Made by a program: the position numbers and the translations under genes. A DNA stretch of 64,000 bases from Escherichia coli phage AZ21: the sequence record LC788708.1; one strand, 5' to 3'. Of the stretch, positions 40,392 through 44,906 are shown in pieces. Positions within the stretch are counted from its first letter, which is position 1. Each line of letters begins with the position of its first letter. Below the pieces are notes generated by a model. The model searched no databases and was not told the DNA's origin. It saw only the letters and a list, made by a program, of their open reading frames with translations.

Positions 40392-40445
40392 GGATTGTTA
40401 CTTATTACCTGCTAGTATTTTCTAGTAGGTAATAAGTAACAATCC
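40392..40445. promoter_or_regulatory. 54-bp palindrome with perfect 19-bp arms
   Basis: GGATTGTTACTTATTACCT ... AGGTAATAAGTAACAATCC. Confidence 0.8.
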
Positions 40446-40468
40446 ATCAAATAACTGGAGTTTATATT

Positions 40469-40720
40469 ATGCAAAACGTTATTACCGCGCCTAAAATTGG
40501 TCAATCCGTCTTTATTCCTTTCGTTACTAAAACGGATGAATTAACCGGAAAGGCCGAACGTATTAAAGGTGCGGCGCTTATGCCGTTCGATACAATCGAC
40601 GCGGTATATGCTGAAAATGAACGCAGTAACAACGGCAAGCCCGTTTTTAGCGTTCGCGTTAAATCCGGCGATGTTGTAAAGGTTGTTCAACGCAACGAAA
40701 AATGGGAAGCTGTGTTGTAA
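40469..40720 (+). CDS. pre-early small protein
   Basis: ACTGGAG RBS. Confidence 0.5.
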   Translation: MQNVITAPKIGQSVFIPFVTKTDELTGKAERIKGAALMPFDTIDAVYAENERSNNGKPVFSVRVKSGDVVKVVQRNEKWEAVL

Positions 40721-40734
40721 TTTAGTGTTAACTT

Positions 40735-40762
40735 TATATCCCCCTTATTTCAGGGGGATATA
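40735..40762 (+). terminator. hairpin TATATCCCCCT..AGGGGGATATA
   Basis: Perfect 11-bp stem; weak U tract. Confidence 0.5.
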
Positions 40763-40818
40763 ACGATTAACATTAAGTTAATCTAATCCCTTAAATTAAA
40801 CTAATAGGAGTTTTTACC

Positions 40819-41226
40819 ATGACTAACGCAAAAACCGCAAAATTCGCATGGAATGAAGAAAACACTCAGAAAGCTGTTACCATGTACCAGCAGTTAATCA
40901 ACGAAAACGGTTTAGATTTTGCAAATAGCGACGGCCTGAAAGAGATTGCAAAAGCAGTAGGCGCGGCCTCCCCCGTATCCGTTCGGTCAAAATTGACCAG
41001 TGCAAAAGCCTATCAAAAAAGCGATAAGCCGCGTAAAGTTGGCGGCGGTAGCTCTGTGCGTAAAGCTCACTATGTGCGAGTAATTGCAAAACACGCTATC
41101 GATTCCGGTATTATCAAAGACGCCGATGATCTGGCAAGCCTTGAAAGTGCTAAACTGGAAACGCTGGACGCGGTGGCGCAACTGTTAGGCGTTGCCGATG
41201 AAGTAAAACAAGCCGTAGGTGAATAA
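40819..41226 (+). CDS. pre-early hypothetical protein
   Basis: ORF, AGGAG RBS. Confidence 0.5.
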   Translation: MTNAKTAKFAWNEENTQKAVTMYQQLINENGLDFANSDGLKEIAKAVGAASPVSVRSKLTSAKAYQKSDKPRKVGGGSSVRKAHYVRVIAKHAIDSGIIKDADDLASLESAKLETLDAVAQLLGVADEVKQAVGE

Positions 41227-41237
41227 TAGTTATACCT

Positions 41238-41260
41238 TGCCCCCTTCTAGTGAGGGGGCA
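41238..41260 (+). terminator. hairpin TGCCCCC-TTCTAGTGA-GGGGGCA
   Basis: 7-bp GC stem. Confidence 0.45.
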
Positions 41261-41316
41261 CTAATATAACTGTTTAGCGATAGTTATTTTCTTCCCTTAA
41301 ATCAGGAGTTTTAAAA

Positions 41317-41514
41317 ATGGTTTTCTTCCCTACTGAATCTTTGATTCTAGGCTTGTTTATTATGGCGGCCTCATTATTGTTCGCTTATTTTCAGAATGAT
41401 TTAGATTCGTATTATTTTAAACGTAAATCTAAATTAGCAAAACGTTTGGGCTTGCTTTGTTTTATCGCTGCCGTTGCCTGTGGTGTTAGTTCGAGTCTAG
41501 TACCATTAAATTAA
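41317..41514 (+). CDS. small membrane protein
   Basis: Two TM helices. Confidence 0.45.
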   Translation: MVFFPTESLILGLFIMAASLLFAYFQNDLDSYYFKRKSKLAKRLGLLCFIAAVACGVSSSLVPLN

Positions 41515-41524
41515 TGTTGCAAAT

Positions 41525-41552
41525 TATAACGCCTATTATTCGAGGCGTTATA
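41525..41552 (+). terminator. hairpin TATAACGCCT..AGGCGTTATA
   Basis: 10-bp stem then TTTGG. Confidence 0.5.
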
Positions 41553-43272: not shown

Positions 43273-43286
43273 TTAAATTATTTCCC

Positions 43287-43310
43287 TAGCGGCTTGAAAT
43301 ACAGCCGCTA
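43287..43310 (+). terminator. hairpin TAGCGGCT..AGCCGCTA
   Basis: 8-bp stem. Confidence 0.45.
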
Positions 43311-43328
43311 TTACAGGAGCTAAATTAA

Positions 43329-43607
43329 ATGGCTATTAAAATTAATCTTCCCAATATTAAAAACACCGCTGATATATGGTCGATTGATACTATATTGCGT
43401 GGCACTGTATACCGTAATTTAAAAGATAATAATTGTTATATTTATCAAAATGAATTAAACGGCCATATTTACATAATCGAGTCCGATGGTTTTTGTTCTT
43501 TTGAGACTGATTATGAAGCGCAAGATCATATACAGGCAAATGATATTCCTGACGTATGGAAAGAAACAAACCTTGCTTTTGTTGTAAGTCTTGAAGCTAA
43601 CAAATAA
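43329..43607 (+). CDS. small hypothetical protein between A1 and A2
   Basis: ORF. Confidence 0.45.
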   Translation: MAIKINLPNIKNTADIWSIDTILRGTVYRNLKDNNCYIYQNELNGHIYIIESDGFCSFETDYEAQDHIQANDIPDVWKETNLAFVVSLEANK

Positions 43608-43645
43608 ATTAAATATCTTATTAAATTAATTGGAGTTTTACAAAT

Positions 43646-44038
43646 ATGAAAAAGCAAAATATTCCATTCGATCGCGCTCAGTCTTCTATTGTTCTGGTTT
43701 ATTCTAATGGTGAGCGTTACCACGTCGAGGCGGGGCACGTTATTGATGAATTATTAGATTTCAATGACGCTTTACAGGTTACTACCTTTGCCTACACGCA
43801 AGGCCGCGCAAGTAGTTACATTAAGGCCGCAGGCGTTTATGTTGACACGGTGAAACAAGAAACGATTATCATCGACGCAGTAAAATCCGGTCTAGCCTTT
43901 GCAGTTGTCGCGCCTTGCCCCTCTTGTCTTGATGATCAGCTAACGAGTGCGAAAGTATACACCTGCGCGGGCATTCGTTCCCATGTATCAGGAGAGGATA
44001 TTAGTTTTATCGCTGATGCGTTGGCTTATGGTCTTTAA
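43646..44038 (+). CDS. A2: A2-like pre-early protein (130 aa)
   Basis: Position between A1 and dmp; size as expected. Confidence 0.5.
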   Translation: MKKQNIPFDRAQSSIVLVYSNGERYHVEAGHVIDELLDFNDALQVTTFAYTQGRASSYIKAAGVYVDTVKQETIIIDAVKSGLAFAVVAPCPSCLDDQLTSAKVYTCAGIRSHVSGEDISFIADALAYGL

Positions 44039-44052
44039 TAGTTGATTTATTA

Positions 44053-44077
44053 TTGCCCGCTGATAGATAGCGGGCAA
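44053..44077 (+). terminator. hairpin TTGCCCGCT..AGCGGGCAA
   Basis: 9-bp stem. Confidence 0.45.
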
Positions 44078-44118
44078 TGCTGGATAAACTACATCCCTTT
44101 AATGGAGAACGTAACAAA

Positions 44119-44853
44119 ATGAATCAAGTTAAAACGAATATTTCCCGTAACTTCCCGCATATTTCCCGCGTCATGATCTGGGATCTTGATGGCACTATCG
44201 TTAATTCATTCCATCGTGTAGCGCCTTGCTTTGATAGTGAGGGTAATCTAGATTTAAATAAGTATAAGAATGAGGCTTGCAAACATGATTTAATAATGCA
44301 GGATACTTTATTGCCTTTGGTGGAATATATGCGCCAATGCATGAATGACGCAAATACTTTAAACATTATTTGTACCGCTCGATTAATGAGCAAATCGGAT
44401 TATTATTATTTGCGCAAACAAGGCTTGCGAGGGCGTGGGGATAGCAATATCCGCGTGTTTTCCCGCGACACGCTGCATAAATATTTTGAAGCTGATAAGG
44501 TTAGCGAGATATACCACAGTAAAGACGCAGTTTATAAATCGTATTACTTTGAATTATTTAAACAGCTATATCCGAACGCTGATTTCACAATGATTGATGA
44601 TCATAAAGGTGTATTATCAGCGGCGGCGTCATACGGATTTAAAACGCTAGACGCGCAAGCCGTTAACGATATTCTATCAATCGGCGTGGCATTGATAGGC
44701 GGAACCTTTATTGATGAATCTCTCGATGATGATAATGATTATCAGTTCCTAGCCGATCGATTGAAATTATGTTGGGAAAGTATGACCGAAGAAGAACGCG
44801 CAGAATATAGTTGCAGCCCGCAACAATATATTGAGAAATTAAAAGTTGCGTAA
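44119..44853 (+). CDS. dmp: 5'-deoxyribonucleotidase, HAD superfamily (244 aa)
   Basis: HAD motif I MIWDLDGTIVNS; start set at the Met with RBS giving 244 aa. Confidence 0.7.
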   Translation: MNQVKTNISRNFPHISRVMIWDLDGTIVNSFHRVAPCFDSEGNLDLNKYKNEACKHDLIMQDTLLPLVEYMRQCMNDANTLNIICTARLMSKSDYYYLRKQGLRGRGDSNIRVFSRDTLHKYFEADKVSEIYHSKDAVYKSYYFELFKQLYPNADFTMIDDHKGVLSAAASYGFKTLDAQAVNDILSIGVALIGGTFIDESLDDDNDYQFLADRLKLCWESMTEEERAEYSCSPQQYIEKLKVA

Positions 44854-44871
44854 TAATTAAAGTTGAAATAG

Positions 44872-44906
44872 TTTCATCCTGCAATTAAAATGGTTGCGGG
44901 ATGAAA
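44872..44906 (+). terminator. 13-bp hairpin after dmp
   Basis: TTTCATCCTGCAA..TTGCGGGATGAAA. Confidence 0.45.

What the first reader, a model, noticed from the sequence alone, without database searches (positions are those of the whole stretch)
40392..44906. Every pre-early gene is followed by a GC hairpin, plus a 54-bp palindrome with perfect 19-bp arms upstream of the first one
Hairpins sit at 40735, 41238, 41525, 43287, 44053 and 44872, one after each of six consecutive genes. Most lack a U tract, and several loops contain CTAG. The 40392-40445 element (GGATTGTTACTTATTACCT...AGGTAATAAGTAACAATCC) is a large operator-like palindrome just before the 40469 ORF. The regularity suggests punctuated transcription (attenuation or processing sites) or binding sites for a pre-early regulator.
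Basis: seen in the sequence. Interest (0 to 1): 0.5.

Follow-up and report, generated by a model that had tools for sequence, protein, structure and literature searches.

The report
Conserved RNA hairpins punctuating T5 pre-early operon
The hairpins are real, conserved RNA stem-loops between the first genes that a T5-like phage expresses. They let transcription read through and probably control how the long early messenger RNA is cut and how long its pieces last, so they are a known kind of element rather than a new one.

Summary
The window is a T5-like phage. Positions 40035-44853 are the leftward pre-early operon (hdi, gp007, A2, a 65-aa membrane protein, A1, two small genes, dmp).

All six hairpins and the 54-bp palindrome are at the stated coordinates and fold far better than shuffles. 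However, there are seven genes, and the 92-aa gene has no hairpin.

T5 GenBank records already label three of the hairpins ("palindrome A", "palindrome B", "putative terminator").

A hairpin occupies the same position in five Demerecviridae lineages, with different stem sequences and many compensatory changes. Stem mismatches are G·U on the sense strand far more often than A·C (43 vs 10 distinct cases). This points to selection on the mRNA fold, not on a DNA operator.

None has a U tract, whereas early-region hairpins of the same phage do. The only mapped promoters lie upstream of essential A1, and published RNA-seq of a relative shows no strong or monotonic drop along the operon. They are therefore read-through elements.

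The palindrome lies about +120 in the 5' leader. It is imperfect in relatives and is replaced by other hairpins in other genera.

Best reading: intercistronic mRNA stem-loops acting as processing or 3'-end stability punctuation, with at most weak attenuation, much like the T7 early-region RNase III sites. The mechanism is not proven. Interest is modest.

The parts
40101..40128 (+). Sigma-70 promoter (TTGACA-16-TAAAAT) inside hdi. It corresponds to T5P44 / P_H22.
   Evidence: 11 of 12 match. (T5 annotation T5P44 at the homologous place). (preprint: P_H22 lies within hdi).
40236..40264 (+). Sigma-70 promoter (TTGACA-17-TAAGAT) overlapping the 3' end of hdi. It corresponds to T5P43 / P_D/E20. The start site is inferred at about 40271.
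40392..40445 (+). Leader stem-loop ('54-bp palindrome'): 24 bp including one G·U pair, 6-nt loop, dG -39 kcal/mol. It lies at about +121 to +174 of the 5' UTR and ends 23 nt before the gp007 ATG.
   Evidence: Conservation and covariation (12 pairs changed on both sides against 3.5 in shuffles). In most relatives it is a two-tier stem with an internal loop.
40469..40720 (+). 83-aa gene (T5 gp007 homologue), the first cistron after the leader.
40734..40763 (+). H1: 12-bp stem (UUAUAUCCCCCU/AGGGGGAUAUAA) with a 6-nt loop. An AU-rich outer stem (40718-40780) includes the stop codon.
   Evidence: Covariation: 95% of cells paired against 35-57% when slid, and 10 pairs changed on both sides with 0/500 shuffles reaching this. 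One pair shows AU, CG, GC and UA.
40765..40783 (+). H1b: small hairpin GAUUAAC-AUUAA-GUUAAUC. Its sequence is conserved in five lineages. It is mutually exclusive with the outer stem of H1.
40785..40796 (+). 'CCC box' AATCCCTTAAAT, upstream of the A2 Shine-Dalgarno sequence (AGGAGTTTT).
40819..41226 (+). A2 gene (DNA-binding protein, needed for second-step DNA transfer).
41238..41260 (+). H2: 8-bp GC stem (UGCCCCCU/AGGGGGCA) with loop UCUAGUG. Outer stem is 41225-41234 paired with 41265-41274. It occupies the position of T5 'palindrome B', but T5 carries a different stem allele there.
41292..41302 (+). CCC box TTCCCTTAAAT, upstream of the Shine-Dalgarno sequence of the 65-aa gene.
41317..41514 (+). 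65-aa membrane protein gene.
41513..41564 (+). H3: composite 22-bp stem with two conserved mismatches. The GC core is 41525-41552.
   Evidence: 5 of 10 core pairs show compensatory changes.
41556..41567 (+). H3b: conserved small palindrome GGCAAUAUUGCC. It overlaps the 3' arm of the H3 outer stem.
41580..41590 (+). CCC box ATCCCTTTAAT, upstream of the A1 Shine-Dalgarno sequence.
41602..43272 (+). A1 gene (essential; host DNA degradation, second-step transfer, binds RNA polymerase).
43287..43310 (+). H4: 8-bp stem (UAGCGGCU/AGCCGCUA) with an 8-nt loop. The flanking UUCC and GGAG can pair across it.
43329..44038 (+). The 92-aa and 130-aa genes, with no hairpin between them (gap 43608-43645).
44053..44077 (+). 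H5: 9-bp GC stem with an outer stem spanning 44039-44091. This is T5 'palindrome A'.
   Evidence: 5 of 9 pairs show compensatory changes.
44093..44103 (+). CCC box ATCCCTTTAAT, upstream of the dmp Shine-Dalgarno sequence. The dmp start is 44119, not 44077.
44119..44853 (+). dmp (deoxynucleoside 5'-monophosphatase), the last gene of the operon.
44867..44911 (+). H6: 17-18-bp stem. It is annotated in T5 as a 'putative rho-independent terminator', on the opposite strand. By homology it lies about 65 bp from the physical left end of the genome (about 44976).

Best explanation
The six hairpins and the leader palindrome are stem-loops that form in the sense-strand RNA of one polycistronic pre-early transcript. 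That transcript starts at the two strong host-polymerase promoters in and next to hdi.

Each unit reads: stop codon, then a GC-rich hairpin beginning 10-16 nt later, then an AU-rich spacer with an AAUCCCUU(U/A)AAU box, then a UGGAG Shine-Dalgarno sequence, then AUG.

RNA polymerase reads through the hairpins. This step is inferred from three things: they have no U tract, essential A1 lies behind three of them with no promoter of its own, and RNA-seq of a relative shows no strong drop.

Their most likely job is post-transcriptional. They would define processed or stalled 3' ends that block 3'-to-5' exonucleases after endonuclease cuts in the AU-rich spacers, or after RNase III cuts in the two-tier stems. 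The cistron segments would then have different lifetimes and outputs. At most they also cause weak attenuation.

What is shown: the RNA fold, its conservation, the strand bias and the absence of terminator tails. What is inferred: the processing and stability role.
For: 1. Structure. Folds are significant.

2. Conservation with turnover.
- A hairpin follows gp007, A2, the 65-aa gene, A1, the 130-aa gene and dmp in Tequintavirus, Epseptimavirus, phage Eos and Sugarlandvirus. In Myunavirus My1 all but the one after A1 are present, because A1 overlaps the next gene there.
- The stem sequences differ, and some hairpins have been replaced wholesale.
- Formal counts for H1: 95% of cells paired against 35-57% when slid, and 10 pairs with double changes, reached by 0/500 shuffles.
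- Formal counts for the leader hairpin: 12 pairs with double changes against 3.5 in shuffles.
- H3 and H5 have 5 compensatory pairs each.

3. Strand.
- Stem mismatches are G·U on the + strand in 123 cells, against 17 A·C.
- By distinct sequence context the count is 43 against 10, binomial p = 6e-6. The bias is seen at all seven sites.

4. Not canonical terminators.
- Tail scores are -1.8 to -3.6 against -4.6 to -5.2 for early-region hairpins.
- No promoter-like site lies between any hairpin and the next gene.
- The only mapped promoters are upstream, in or beside hdi.

5. Bas33 RNA-seq, max-group TPM: gp007 12199, A2 5207, 65-aa gene 1171, A1 4925, next gene 1143, next gene 4425, dmp 2218. A downstream gene exceeding its upstream neighbour cannot come from termination alone. 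It fits differential segment stability.

6. Architecture. Upper stems of 10-12 bp, a conserved mismatch or internal-loop zone, and lower stems of 5-11 bp occur in the leader hairpin, H1, H2, H3 and H5. This resembles the T7 early RNase III sites (established knowledge).
Against: - I found no 3'-end or 5'-end mapping for T5-like pre-early RNA. No cleavage or stalled end has been shown.
- The RNA-seq is a single 20-min time point in another phage. The low values belong to short genes, so size bias may contribute. The value used is the CLC 'max group mean'.
- H4 (8 bp) and T5's own version of H2 (9 bp) are too short for RNase III, so one enzyme cannot explain all sites.
- G·T is also better tolerated than A·C in single-stranded DNA, so the strand bias does not strictly exclude a + strand ssDNA fold.
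- In My1 and L045 some orthologous hairpins do carry U tracts, so a terminator function exists in part of the family.
Confidence: 0.5

Rival explanations
1. Leaky intrinsic terminators (attenuators). Each hairpin stops a fraction of polymerases, which produces a 5'-to-3' expression gradient along the operon. H6 ends the operon.
For: - Stem and loop sizes and the distance from the stop codon are typical of terminators.
- Orthologous hairpins in My1 and L045 are followed by U tracts.
- H3 core, H2 outer stem and H1 outer stem have marginal tails of -3.3 to -3.6.
- In Bas33, the larger genes decline from gp007 12199 to dmp 2218.
- BB1 and T5 annotators called H1 and H6 terminators.
Against: - Tails are at background level for H1 core, H4, H5 and H6, and the terminator scan finds none of the six.
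- A1 exceeds the 65-aa gene, and gene 0184 exceeds 0183, which termination cannot produce.
- The total decline over five hairpins is only about 5-fold.
- The same phage uses clear U-tract terminators elsewhere, so the missing tails look selected rather than accidental.
Confidence: 0.2
2. RNase III processing sites, as in the T7 early region. The two-tier stems (leader hairpin, H1, H2, H3, H5, H6) are cut by host RNase III into monocistronic RNAs that end in protective hairpins. The leader cut gives one 5' end to transcripts from both promoters.
For: - Composite stems of 20-27 bp have a conserved internal loop or mismatch zone 10-12 bp below the apical loop.
- One element lies in the leader downstream of the tandem promoters, as R0.3 does in T7 (established knowledge).
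- The stems tolerate G·U pairs on the sense strand.
Against: - H4, and the H2 allele found in T5, have only 8-9 bp.
- The outer stems include the upstream stop codon, so terminating ribosomes would melt them.
- No rnc-dependent phenotype or cleavage is reported in the searchable literature.
- RNase III antideterminant positions were not tested.
Confidence: 0.15
3. DNA-level protein-binding sites: an operator for A2, A1 or another pre-early regulator at the 54-bp palindrome, with related sites at the other palindromes.
For: - The palindrome is perfect in this phage.
- A2 binds DNA, and A1 dampens pre-early promoters.
- H1b is a sequence-conserved 7-5-7 palindrome of the kind bound by dimeric proteins.
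Against: - The palindrome lies about +120 to +175 from the promoter, not over it.
- It is imperfect as DNA but keeps U·G pairs in 25 of 29 relatives.
- Other genera carry unrelated hairpins in its place.
- The stems share no half-site sequence.
- The strong G·U over A·C bias is not expected for duplex DNA recognition.
Confidence: 0.05
4. Translational insulation or coupling devices. Hairpins that start at the stop codon, the alternative pairings (H1 outer stem versus H1b; H3 outer stem versus H3b), and the CCC box opposite GGAG together make translation of each cistron depend on, or independent of, the one before.
For: - Outer stems contain the stop codon.
- Both alternative pairings at H1 have some covariation support.
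- The CCC box plus GGAG arrangement is conserved in all five lineages and absent from early genes.
Against: - The CCC/GGAG mini-helix is only 3-4 bp and invariant, so there is no covariation evidence for it.
- The predicted switch before A1 is not conserved in T5 itself.
- This reading does not explain the leader hairpin or H6.
Confidence: 0.1

Closest known systems
RNase III processing sites of the phage T7 early region (R0.3, R0.5, R1, R1.1, R1.3)
   Same: - Strong host-polymerase promoters drive one polycistronic early RNA.
- A stem-loop lies in the leader and between cistrons.
- Stems are two-tier with an internal loop.
- The stems would leave 3' hairpins on upstream segments.
   Different: - No cleavage has been shown.
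- Some T5-type stems are only 8-9 bp.
- The sequences are unrelated.
- The outer stems overlap stop codons.
Rho-independent (intrinsic) terminators
   Same: - GC-rich stems of 8-12 bp with 4-8-nt loops.
- Placed 10-16 nt after stop codons.
- Orthologues in My1 and L045 have U tracts.
- H6 sits at the operon end and is annotated as a terminator in T5.
   Different: - There is no U tract: tail scores are at background, unlike the early-region terminators of the same phage.
- Essential downstream genes require read-through.
- RNA-seq of a relative shows no step-down pattern.
Intercistronic mRNA stabiliser hairpins (E. coli REP elements in malEFG, the Rhodobacter puf operon, intercistronic hairpins of phage T4)
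   Same: - Stable U-less stem-loops between cistrons of a read-through operon.
- Unequal steady-state levels of adjacent segments.
- Structure is conserved but sequence is not.
   Different: - They are not a dispersed repeat family.
- No decay intermediates have been mapped.
- They are coupled to a conserved CCC box and a GGAG Shine-Dalgarno sequence, which those systems lack.
T4-type PeSL cassettes (promoter-early stem-loops flanking small early genes)
   Same: - A stem-loop plus conserved regulatory sequence flanks each small early gene.
- Alleles and cassettes are exchanged between relatives. Examples are the two H2 alleles and the variable genes between A1 and the 130-aa gene.
   Different: No promoter follows the hairpins here. 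The conserved element after the hairpin is a CCC box plus Shine-Dalgarno sequence.
T5 GenBank features 'palindrome A', 'palindrome B' and 'putative rho-independent terminator' (AY587007)
   Same: These occupy the positions of H5, H2 and H6. In the window H2 carries a different stem allele from T5.
   Different: - They are annotated only as DNA palindromes, or as a terminator on the opposite strand.
- H1, H3, H4 and the leader hairpin are not annotated there.
- No RNA-level or comparative analysis is attached.

Membership tests
Rho-independent terminator | GC-rich stem-loop directly after a gene | tested here: met
   stems of 8-12 GC-rich bp that start 10-16 nt after the stop codon.
Rho-independent terminator | U-rich tract immediately 3' of the stem | tested here: not met
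   tail scores -1.8 to -3.6 (background mean -2.2) against -4.6 to -5.2 for early-region terminators; none of the six is detected.
Rho-independent terminator | Transcripts end at the site | tested here: inconclusive
   There is no 3'-end mapping. Bas33 RNA-seq shows A1 roughly equal to A2, and downstream genes above upstream ones. This argues against efficient termination, but it is a single late time point.
RNase III processing site (T7 early type) | About 20 bp or more of double-stranded RNA, often split by an internal loop | tested here: inconclusive
   Met for the leader hairpin (24 bp), H1 (about 27 bp), H2 as it stands in the window (8 + 10 bp around an internal loop), H3 (22), H5 (22) and H6 (17-21). 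Not met for H4 (8 bp) or for the H2 allele in T5 (9 bp).
RNase III processing site (T7 early type) | Cleavage by RNase III in vitro or in vivo | not testable with these tools
   No data found.
DNA operator / palindromic regulator site | Overlaps or directly abuts the regulated promoter | tested here: not met
   The promoter -10 is at 40259-40264 and the palindrome at 40392-40445, which is about +120 to +175.
DNA operator / palindromic regulator site | Half-site sequence conserved among relatives that share the regulator | tested here: not met
   Other genera that keep A1 and A2 carry unrelated hairpins here. Within Tequintavirus the arms differ by an internal loop and by U·G pairs.
Structured cis-acting RNA element under selection | Compensatory base-pair changes beyond the controls | tested here: met
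   (0/500 shuffles reach the observed values; slid controls pair 35-57% of cells)..
Structured cis-acting RNA element under selection | Strand-specific tolerance of G·U but not A·C | tested here: met
   43 against 10 distinct contexts, p = 6e-6.
Integron attC-like cassette junctions | Conserved R''/L''-L'/R' boxes plus an integrase | tested here: not met
   The stems share no boxes. No integrase is annotated in the parts of this window and related loci that I inspected. H1b only loosely resembles RYYYAAC/GTTRRRY.

The most novel reading that the evidence does not exclude
The repeated unit (hairpin, AAUCCCUU(U/A)AAU box, UGGAG Shine-Dalgarno) could be a dedicated post-transcriptional code for pre-early genes, conserved across Demerecviridae. 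It would be read by a phage factor (for example A1 or the 11-kDa polymerase-associated protein) or by a host RNase. It could be the cis target of the long-unexplained A1-dependent shut-off of pre-early expression, in the way GGAG sites serve T4 RegB.
Probability: 0.12. Interest if true: 0.65.

Novelty: new member of a known kind. Interest (0 to 1): 0.35.

Why it matters
How T5 sets the levels of its pre-early proteins during the few minutes when only 8% of the genome is in the cell, and how it then shuts them off, is still unexplained.

Three results give concrete mutagenesis targets in a phage that can now be engineered:
- the operon is punctuated by RNA structures under selection;
- these structures are not ordinary terminators;
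- they are tied to a conserved box upstream of each ribosome-binding site.

The work also corrects the reading of features that T5 records list only as DNA 'palindromes'. If the elements turn out to be simple stabiliser hairpins, the result is ordinary.

Tried and rejected
- **Rfam scan of 39500-45300.** Only sub-threshold miRNA-like hits on the long palindrome. No known family.
- **CTAG as a signal.** Rejected: the tetranucleotide is not depleted in this genome, and most copies in the region are in coding sequence.
- **Internal promoters between hairpin and next gene (PeSL-like or moron-like units).** None on the + strand apart from the two upstream promoters.
- **Extra copies of H1b elsewhere in the window, as expected for a regulator's sites.** None.
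- **Integron attC analogy.** Rejected: no shared boxes and no integrase.
- **CCC box pairing with the hairpin 3' arm or with GGAG.** Only 3-5 weak pairs, all invariant, so untestable by covariation.
- **Literature searches for T5 Term-seq, 3'-end mapping or RNase III dependence.** Nothing found. Davison 2015 is not held.
- **AZ23 annotation for the first 12 kb of the window.** Failed: the window and AZ23 are not collinear there, so the early-region comparison rests mainly on 14-34 kb. Terminator tails were scored at their true positions in the window.
- **Distant A1 homologues from metagenomes (L050-L066, 37-49% identity).** Not analysed for punctuation, because gene boundaries could not be set reliably.

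
Full report
**Identity of the region**

Positions 40200-45000 are 100% identical to E. coli phage AZ23 and 88% identical to both terminal repeats of phage T5, in reverse orientation. From the T5 annotations and tblastn, the + strand carries the leftward pre-early operon:
- hdi, 40035-40247
- an 83-aa gene (gp007 homologue), 40469-40720
- A2, 40819-41226
- a 65-aa membrane protein, 41317-41514
- A1, 41602-43272
- a 92-aa gene, 43329-43607
- a 130-aa gene, 43646-44038
- dmp, 44119-44853 (the true start by homology is 44119, not the longer ORF from 44077)

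Two strong sigma-70 promoters lie at 40101-40128 and 40236-40264. They match T5P44 and T5P43 in the T5 record. They also match the experimentally characterised P_H22 and P_D/E20, which a 2026 preprint places within, and partly over, hdi. By homology with T5 the physical left end of the genome would be near 44976.

**Checking the observation**

The inverted-repeat search recovers every element at the stated coordinates. As RNA each intergenic region folds much better than dinucleotide shuffles:
- z = -10.7 for the palindrome
- z = -3.1 to -4.9 for the six intergenic regions with hairpins
- z = -0.9 for the gap after the 92-aa gene, which has no hairpin

So there are six hairpins for seven genes, not 'six consecutive genes'.

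The claim about missing U tracts holds quantitatively. Tail scores are -1.8 to -3.6 against a regional background mean of -2.2. Six of the seven GC hairpins checked in the early region of the same window score -4.6 to -5.2; the seventh scores -2.4. The terminator scan finds none of the six.

CTAG occurs in one hairpin loop and twice in the palindrome apex. It is not depleted in this genome (292 observed, 225 expected), and 12 of the 16 copies in the region are in coding sequence. I give it no weight.

Intergenic hairpins are not unique to this operon. The other pre-early arm and the early region have them wherever there are gaps, mostly with U tracts. What is special here is their density and the absence of tails.

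**Prior annotation**

The T5 record AY587007 already lists three of these elements:
- 'palindrome B' corresponds to H2 in position; the window carries a different stem allele there
- 'palindrome A' is H5
- a 'putative rho-independent terminator' is H6, placed on the opposite strand

The BB1 record calls H1 a terminator. H3, H4 and the leader palindrome are not annotated. The palindrome also lies outside the 'repeat regions' discussed by Davison.

**Conservation**

I collected 66 related loci, located each gene by tblastn, and extracted the sequence after each stop codon.

A hairpin is present after gp007, A2, the 65-aa gene, A1, the 130-aa gene and dmp in Tequintavirus, Epseptimavirus, phage Eos and Klebsiella Sugarlandvirus KpGranit. 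Pectobacterium Myunavirus My1 has all but the one after A1, where the genes overlap. No relative that has the 92-aa gene has a hairpin after it.

The stems differ between lineages. Examples:
- The H1 core reads AUAUCCCCC, AUAUACCCC, AUAUGCCCC, AUAUUUCCCC or ACCCUCCU, each with its matching partner.
- H2 exists as two unrelated alleles, UAGUGGGGA...UCCCCACUA and UUGCCCCCU...AGGGGGCAA.

Formal counts:
- H1 plus H1b: 95.3% of cells paired, against 35-57% for slid partners. Ten pairs are changed on both sides, against 3.9 in shuffles (0/500). One pair shows AU, CG, GC and UA.
- Leader hairpin: 84.7% paired, against 43-54%. Twelve pairs have double changes, against 3.5 (0/500).
- RNAalifold on my alignments gives 5 of 10 compensatory pairs for the H3 core and 5 of 9 for H5.

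The elements are under selection for pairing.

**Which molecule folds**

I used a stem finder that treats G/T and A/C mismatches identically. In unique stems it finds 123 G·U-type cells against 17 A·C-type cells on the + strand. By distinct sequence context the count is 43 against 10 (binomial p = 6e-6), and the bias appears at all seven sites.

An A·C on the + strand would be a G·U on the other strand. The fold is therefore selected on the sense strand, which points to the mRNA. The caveat is that G·T is also the mildest mismatch in single-stranded DNA.

**The 54-bp palindrome**

It lies about 121-174 nt downstream of the inferred start of the nearer promoter and ends 23 nt before the gp007 ATG. 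It is therefore part of a leader of roughly 197 nt, not of a promoter.

Its perfection is peculiar to this phage. In 26 of 29 relatives one central position is unpaired, 25 carry a U·G pair next to it, and 13 have a further mismatch. The usual form is a two-tier stem: an 8-bp lower helix, an internal loop and a 10-12-bp upper helix.

Epseptimavirus, Eos, KpGranit and My1 carry unrelated hairpins at the same place, each followed by the same box and Shine-Dalgarno sequence. This contradicts an operator whose sequence a protein reads. It makes the palindrome the first member of the same series as the intercistronic hairpins.

**Terminators or read-through elements**

Four lines argue for read-through:
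- There are no U tracts, although the phage uses canonical terminators elsewhere.
- There are no promoter-like sites between any hairpin and the next gene.
- Promoters have been mapped only upstream, yet essential A1 lies behind H1-H3 and dmp behind H1-H5.
- Published RNA-seq of the Tequintavirus Bas33 at 20 min gives these max-group-mean TPM values: hdi 1232, gp007 12199, A2 5207, 65-aa gene 1171, A1 4925, next gene 1143, next gene 4425, dmp 2218.

Among the larger genes the decline is about 5-fold over five hairpins. Two downstream genes exceed their upstream neighbours, which sequential termination cannot produce. That pattern fits unequal stability of processed segments.

The RNA-seq has limits. 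It is a single late time point in another phage, and the low values belong to short genes.

Some orthologous hairpins in My1 and L045 do carry U tracts. The series probably derives from terminators, and weak attenuation at some sites remains possible.

**Anatomy beyond the finding**

Each unit has more than a hairpin.

*The CCC box.* The exact 10-mer TCCCTTWAAT occurs five times in 64 kb. Four copies are on the + strand, 10-25 nt upstream of the Shine-Dalgarno sequences of A2, the 65-aa gene, A1 and dmp. T5 also has the box before gp007 and the 130-aa gene, and a YCCC(A/U)U(A/U)A form is kept in all five lineages.

*The Shine-Dalgarno sequence.* All seven genes use GGAG, and five use GGAGTTT. 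In my reading of the upstream sequences listed, about 18 of 46 early genes contain GGAG and none has the box.

*Two further small hairpins.* H1b (GAUUAAC-AUUAA-GUUAAUC, 40765-40783) shows a U:A to A:U swap in Eos and My1. H3b is GGCAAUAUUGCC at 41556-41567. Each competes with the outer stem of the preceding hairpin, and that outer stem contains the upstream stop codon. This allows a link to upstream translation, but I could not support the idea by covariation.

*Two-tier architecture.* In the leader hairpin, H1, H2, H3 and H5 the perfect upper stem is 10-12 bp, followed by a conserved mismatch zone and a lower stem. This is the layout of the T7 early RNase III sites.

**Mechanism I commit to**

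These are sense-strand RNA stem-loops in a read-through polycistronic pre-early mRNA. They serve as processing and 3'-end stability punctuation, possibly through RNase III at the long two-tier stems. They act as exonuclease barriers after cuts in the AU-rich spacers, and they cause at most weak attenuation.

I hold with high confidence that they are selected RNA structures and neither efficient terminators nor operators. I hold the processing and stability role with moderate confidence. Overall confidence is 0.5.

The rivals, and the experiments that would separate them, are listed in the structured fields.

**Novelty and interest**

Intercistronic stem-loops in phage early operons are a known kind of element, and three of these seven are already in GenBank as bare 'palindromes' or a terminator. 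I found no published account of three points:
- the complete series;
- the evidence for selection at the RNA level;
- the associated CCC box.

These points bear on the unsolved question of how T5 pre-early expression is balanced and shut off. A specialist would find this useful rather than surprising, so I score interest at 0.35.

Noticed in passing
window 40787-40796, 41293-41302, 41581-41590, 44094-44103 (+ strand): The exact box TCCCTT(T/A)AAT occurs 10-25 nt upstream of the Shine-Dalgarno sequence of four pre-early genes. There are five exact copies in 64 kb where about 0.2 are expected. A YCCC(A/U)U(A/U)A form is conserved in five Demerecviridae lineages and is absent before early genes. 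Function unknown.
   Followed up: partly
window 40765-40783: H1b, GATTAACATTAAGTTAATC, lies upstream of A2. It and the adjoining CCC box form the most sequence-conserved non-coding block of the operon, with invariant columns across five lineages. It is unique in the window and competes with the outer stem of H1.
   Followed up: partly
window 41556-41567: A conserved 12-nt palindrome, GGCAATATTGCC, lies directly after H3 and overlaps the 3' arm of the H3 outer stem. A small hairpin is kept at this place in KpGranit, Eos and My1.
   Followed up: partly
window 39979-40002 and 40247-40270: A 24-bp inverted repeat with one mismatch flanks hdi (T5 'inverted repeat A/A''). The right copy covers the spacer and -10 element of the P_D/E20-like promoter. 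In transcripts from further upstream the two copies could form a long-range stem enclosing hdi.
   Followed up: no
window 44915-44976: A second hairpin (44915-44946) and a motif GGGGGNGGCGGU(A/U)A...AGACU lie between H6 and the inferred physical genome end (about 44976). Related motifs sit 60-100 nt after dmp in STK8t, Eos, KpGranit and My1. This may be a terminus or packaging signal.
   Followed up: no
window 40469-44853, upstream of each start codon: All seven genes of the operon use GGAG as the Shine-Dalgarno core, and five use GGAGTTT. About 18 of 46 early genes contain GGAG. GGAG is the target motif of T4 RegB, which makes this a speculative lead on the pre-early shut-off.
   Followed up: no
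window 1-14000: The window is not collinear with phage AZ23 upstream of about 14 kb. AZ23 annotation coordinates shifted by 1841 nt give only 61% identity, and AZ23 nadR-pnuC seems to have no counterpart. The source genome is therefore a mosaic relative of AZ23, not AZ23 itself.
   Followed up: no
PMC13250531 Dataset S1B (Bas33 genes 0178-0185): Steady-state RNA levels along the homologous operon are strongly non-monotonic (1232, 12199, 5207, 1171, 4925, 1143, 4425, 2218 TPM). The gp007 segment, which is bracketed by the two strongest hairpins, is the most abundant.
   Followed up: partly
window 40727-40735: TTAACTTTA, identical to the T7 gene 10 'epsilon' translational enhancer, lies at the junction of the outer and inner 5' arms of H1, about 85 nt upstream of A2. 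This is probably chance.
   Followed up: no
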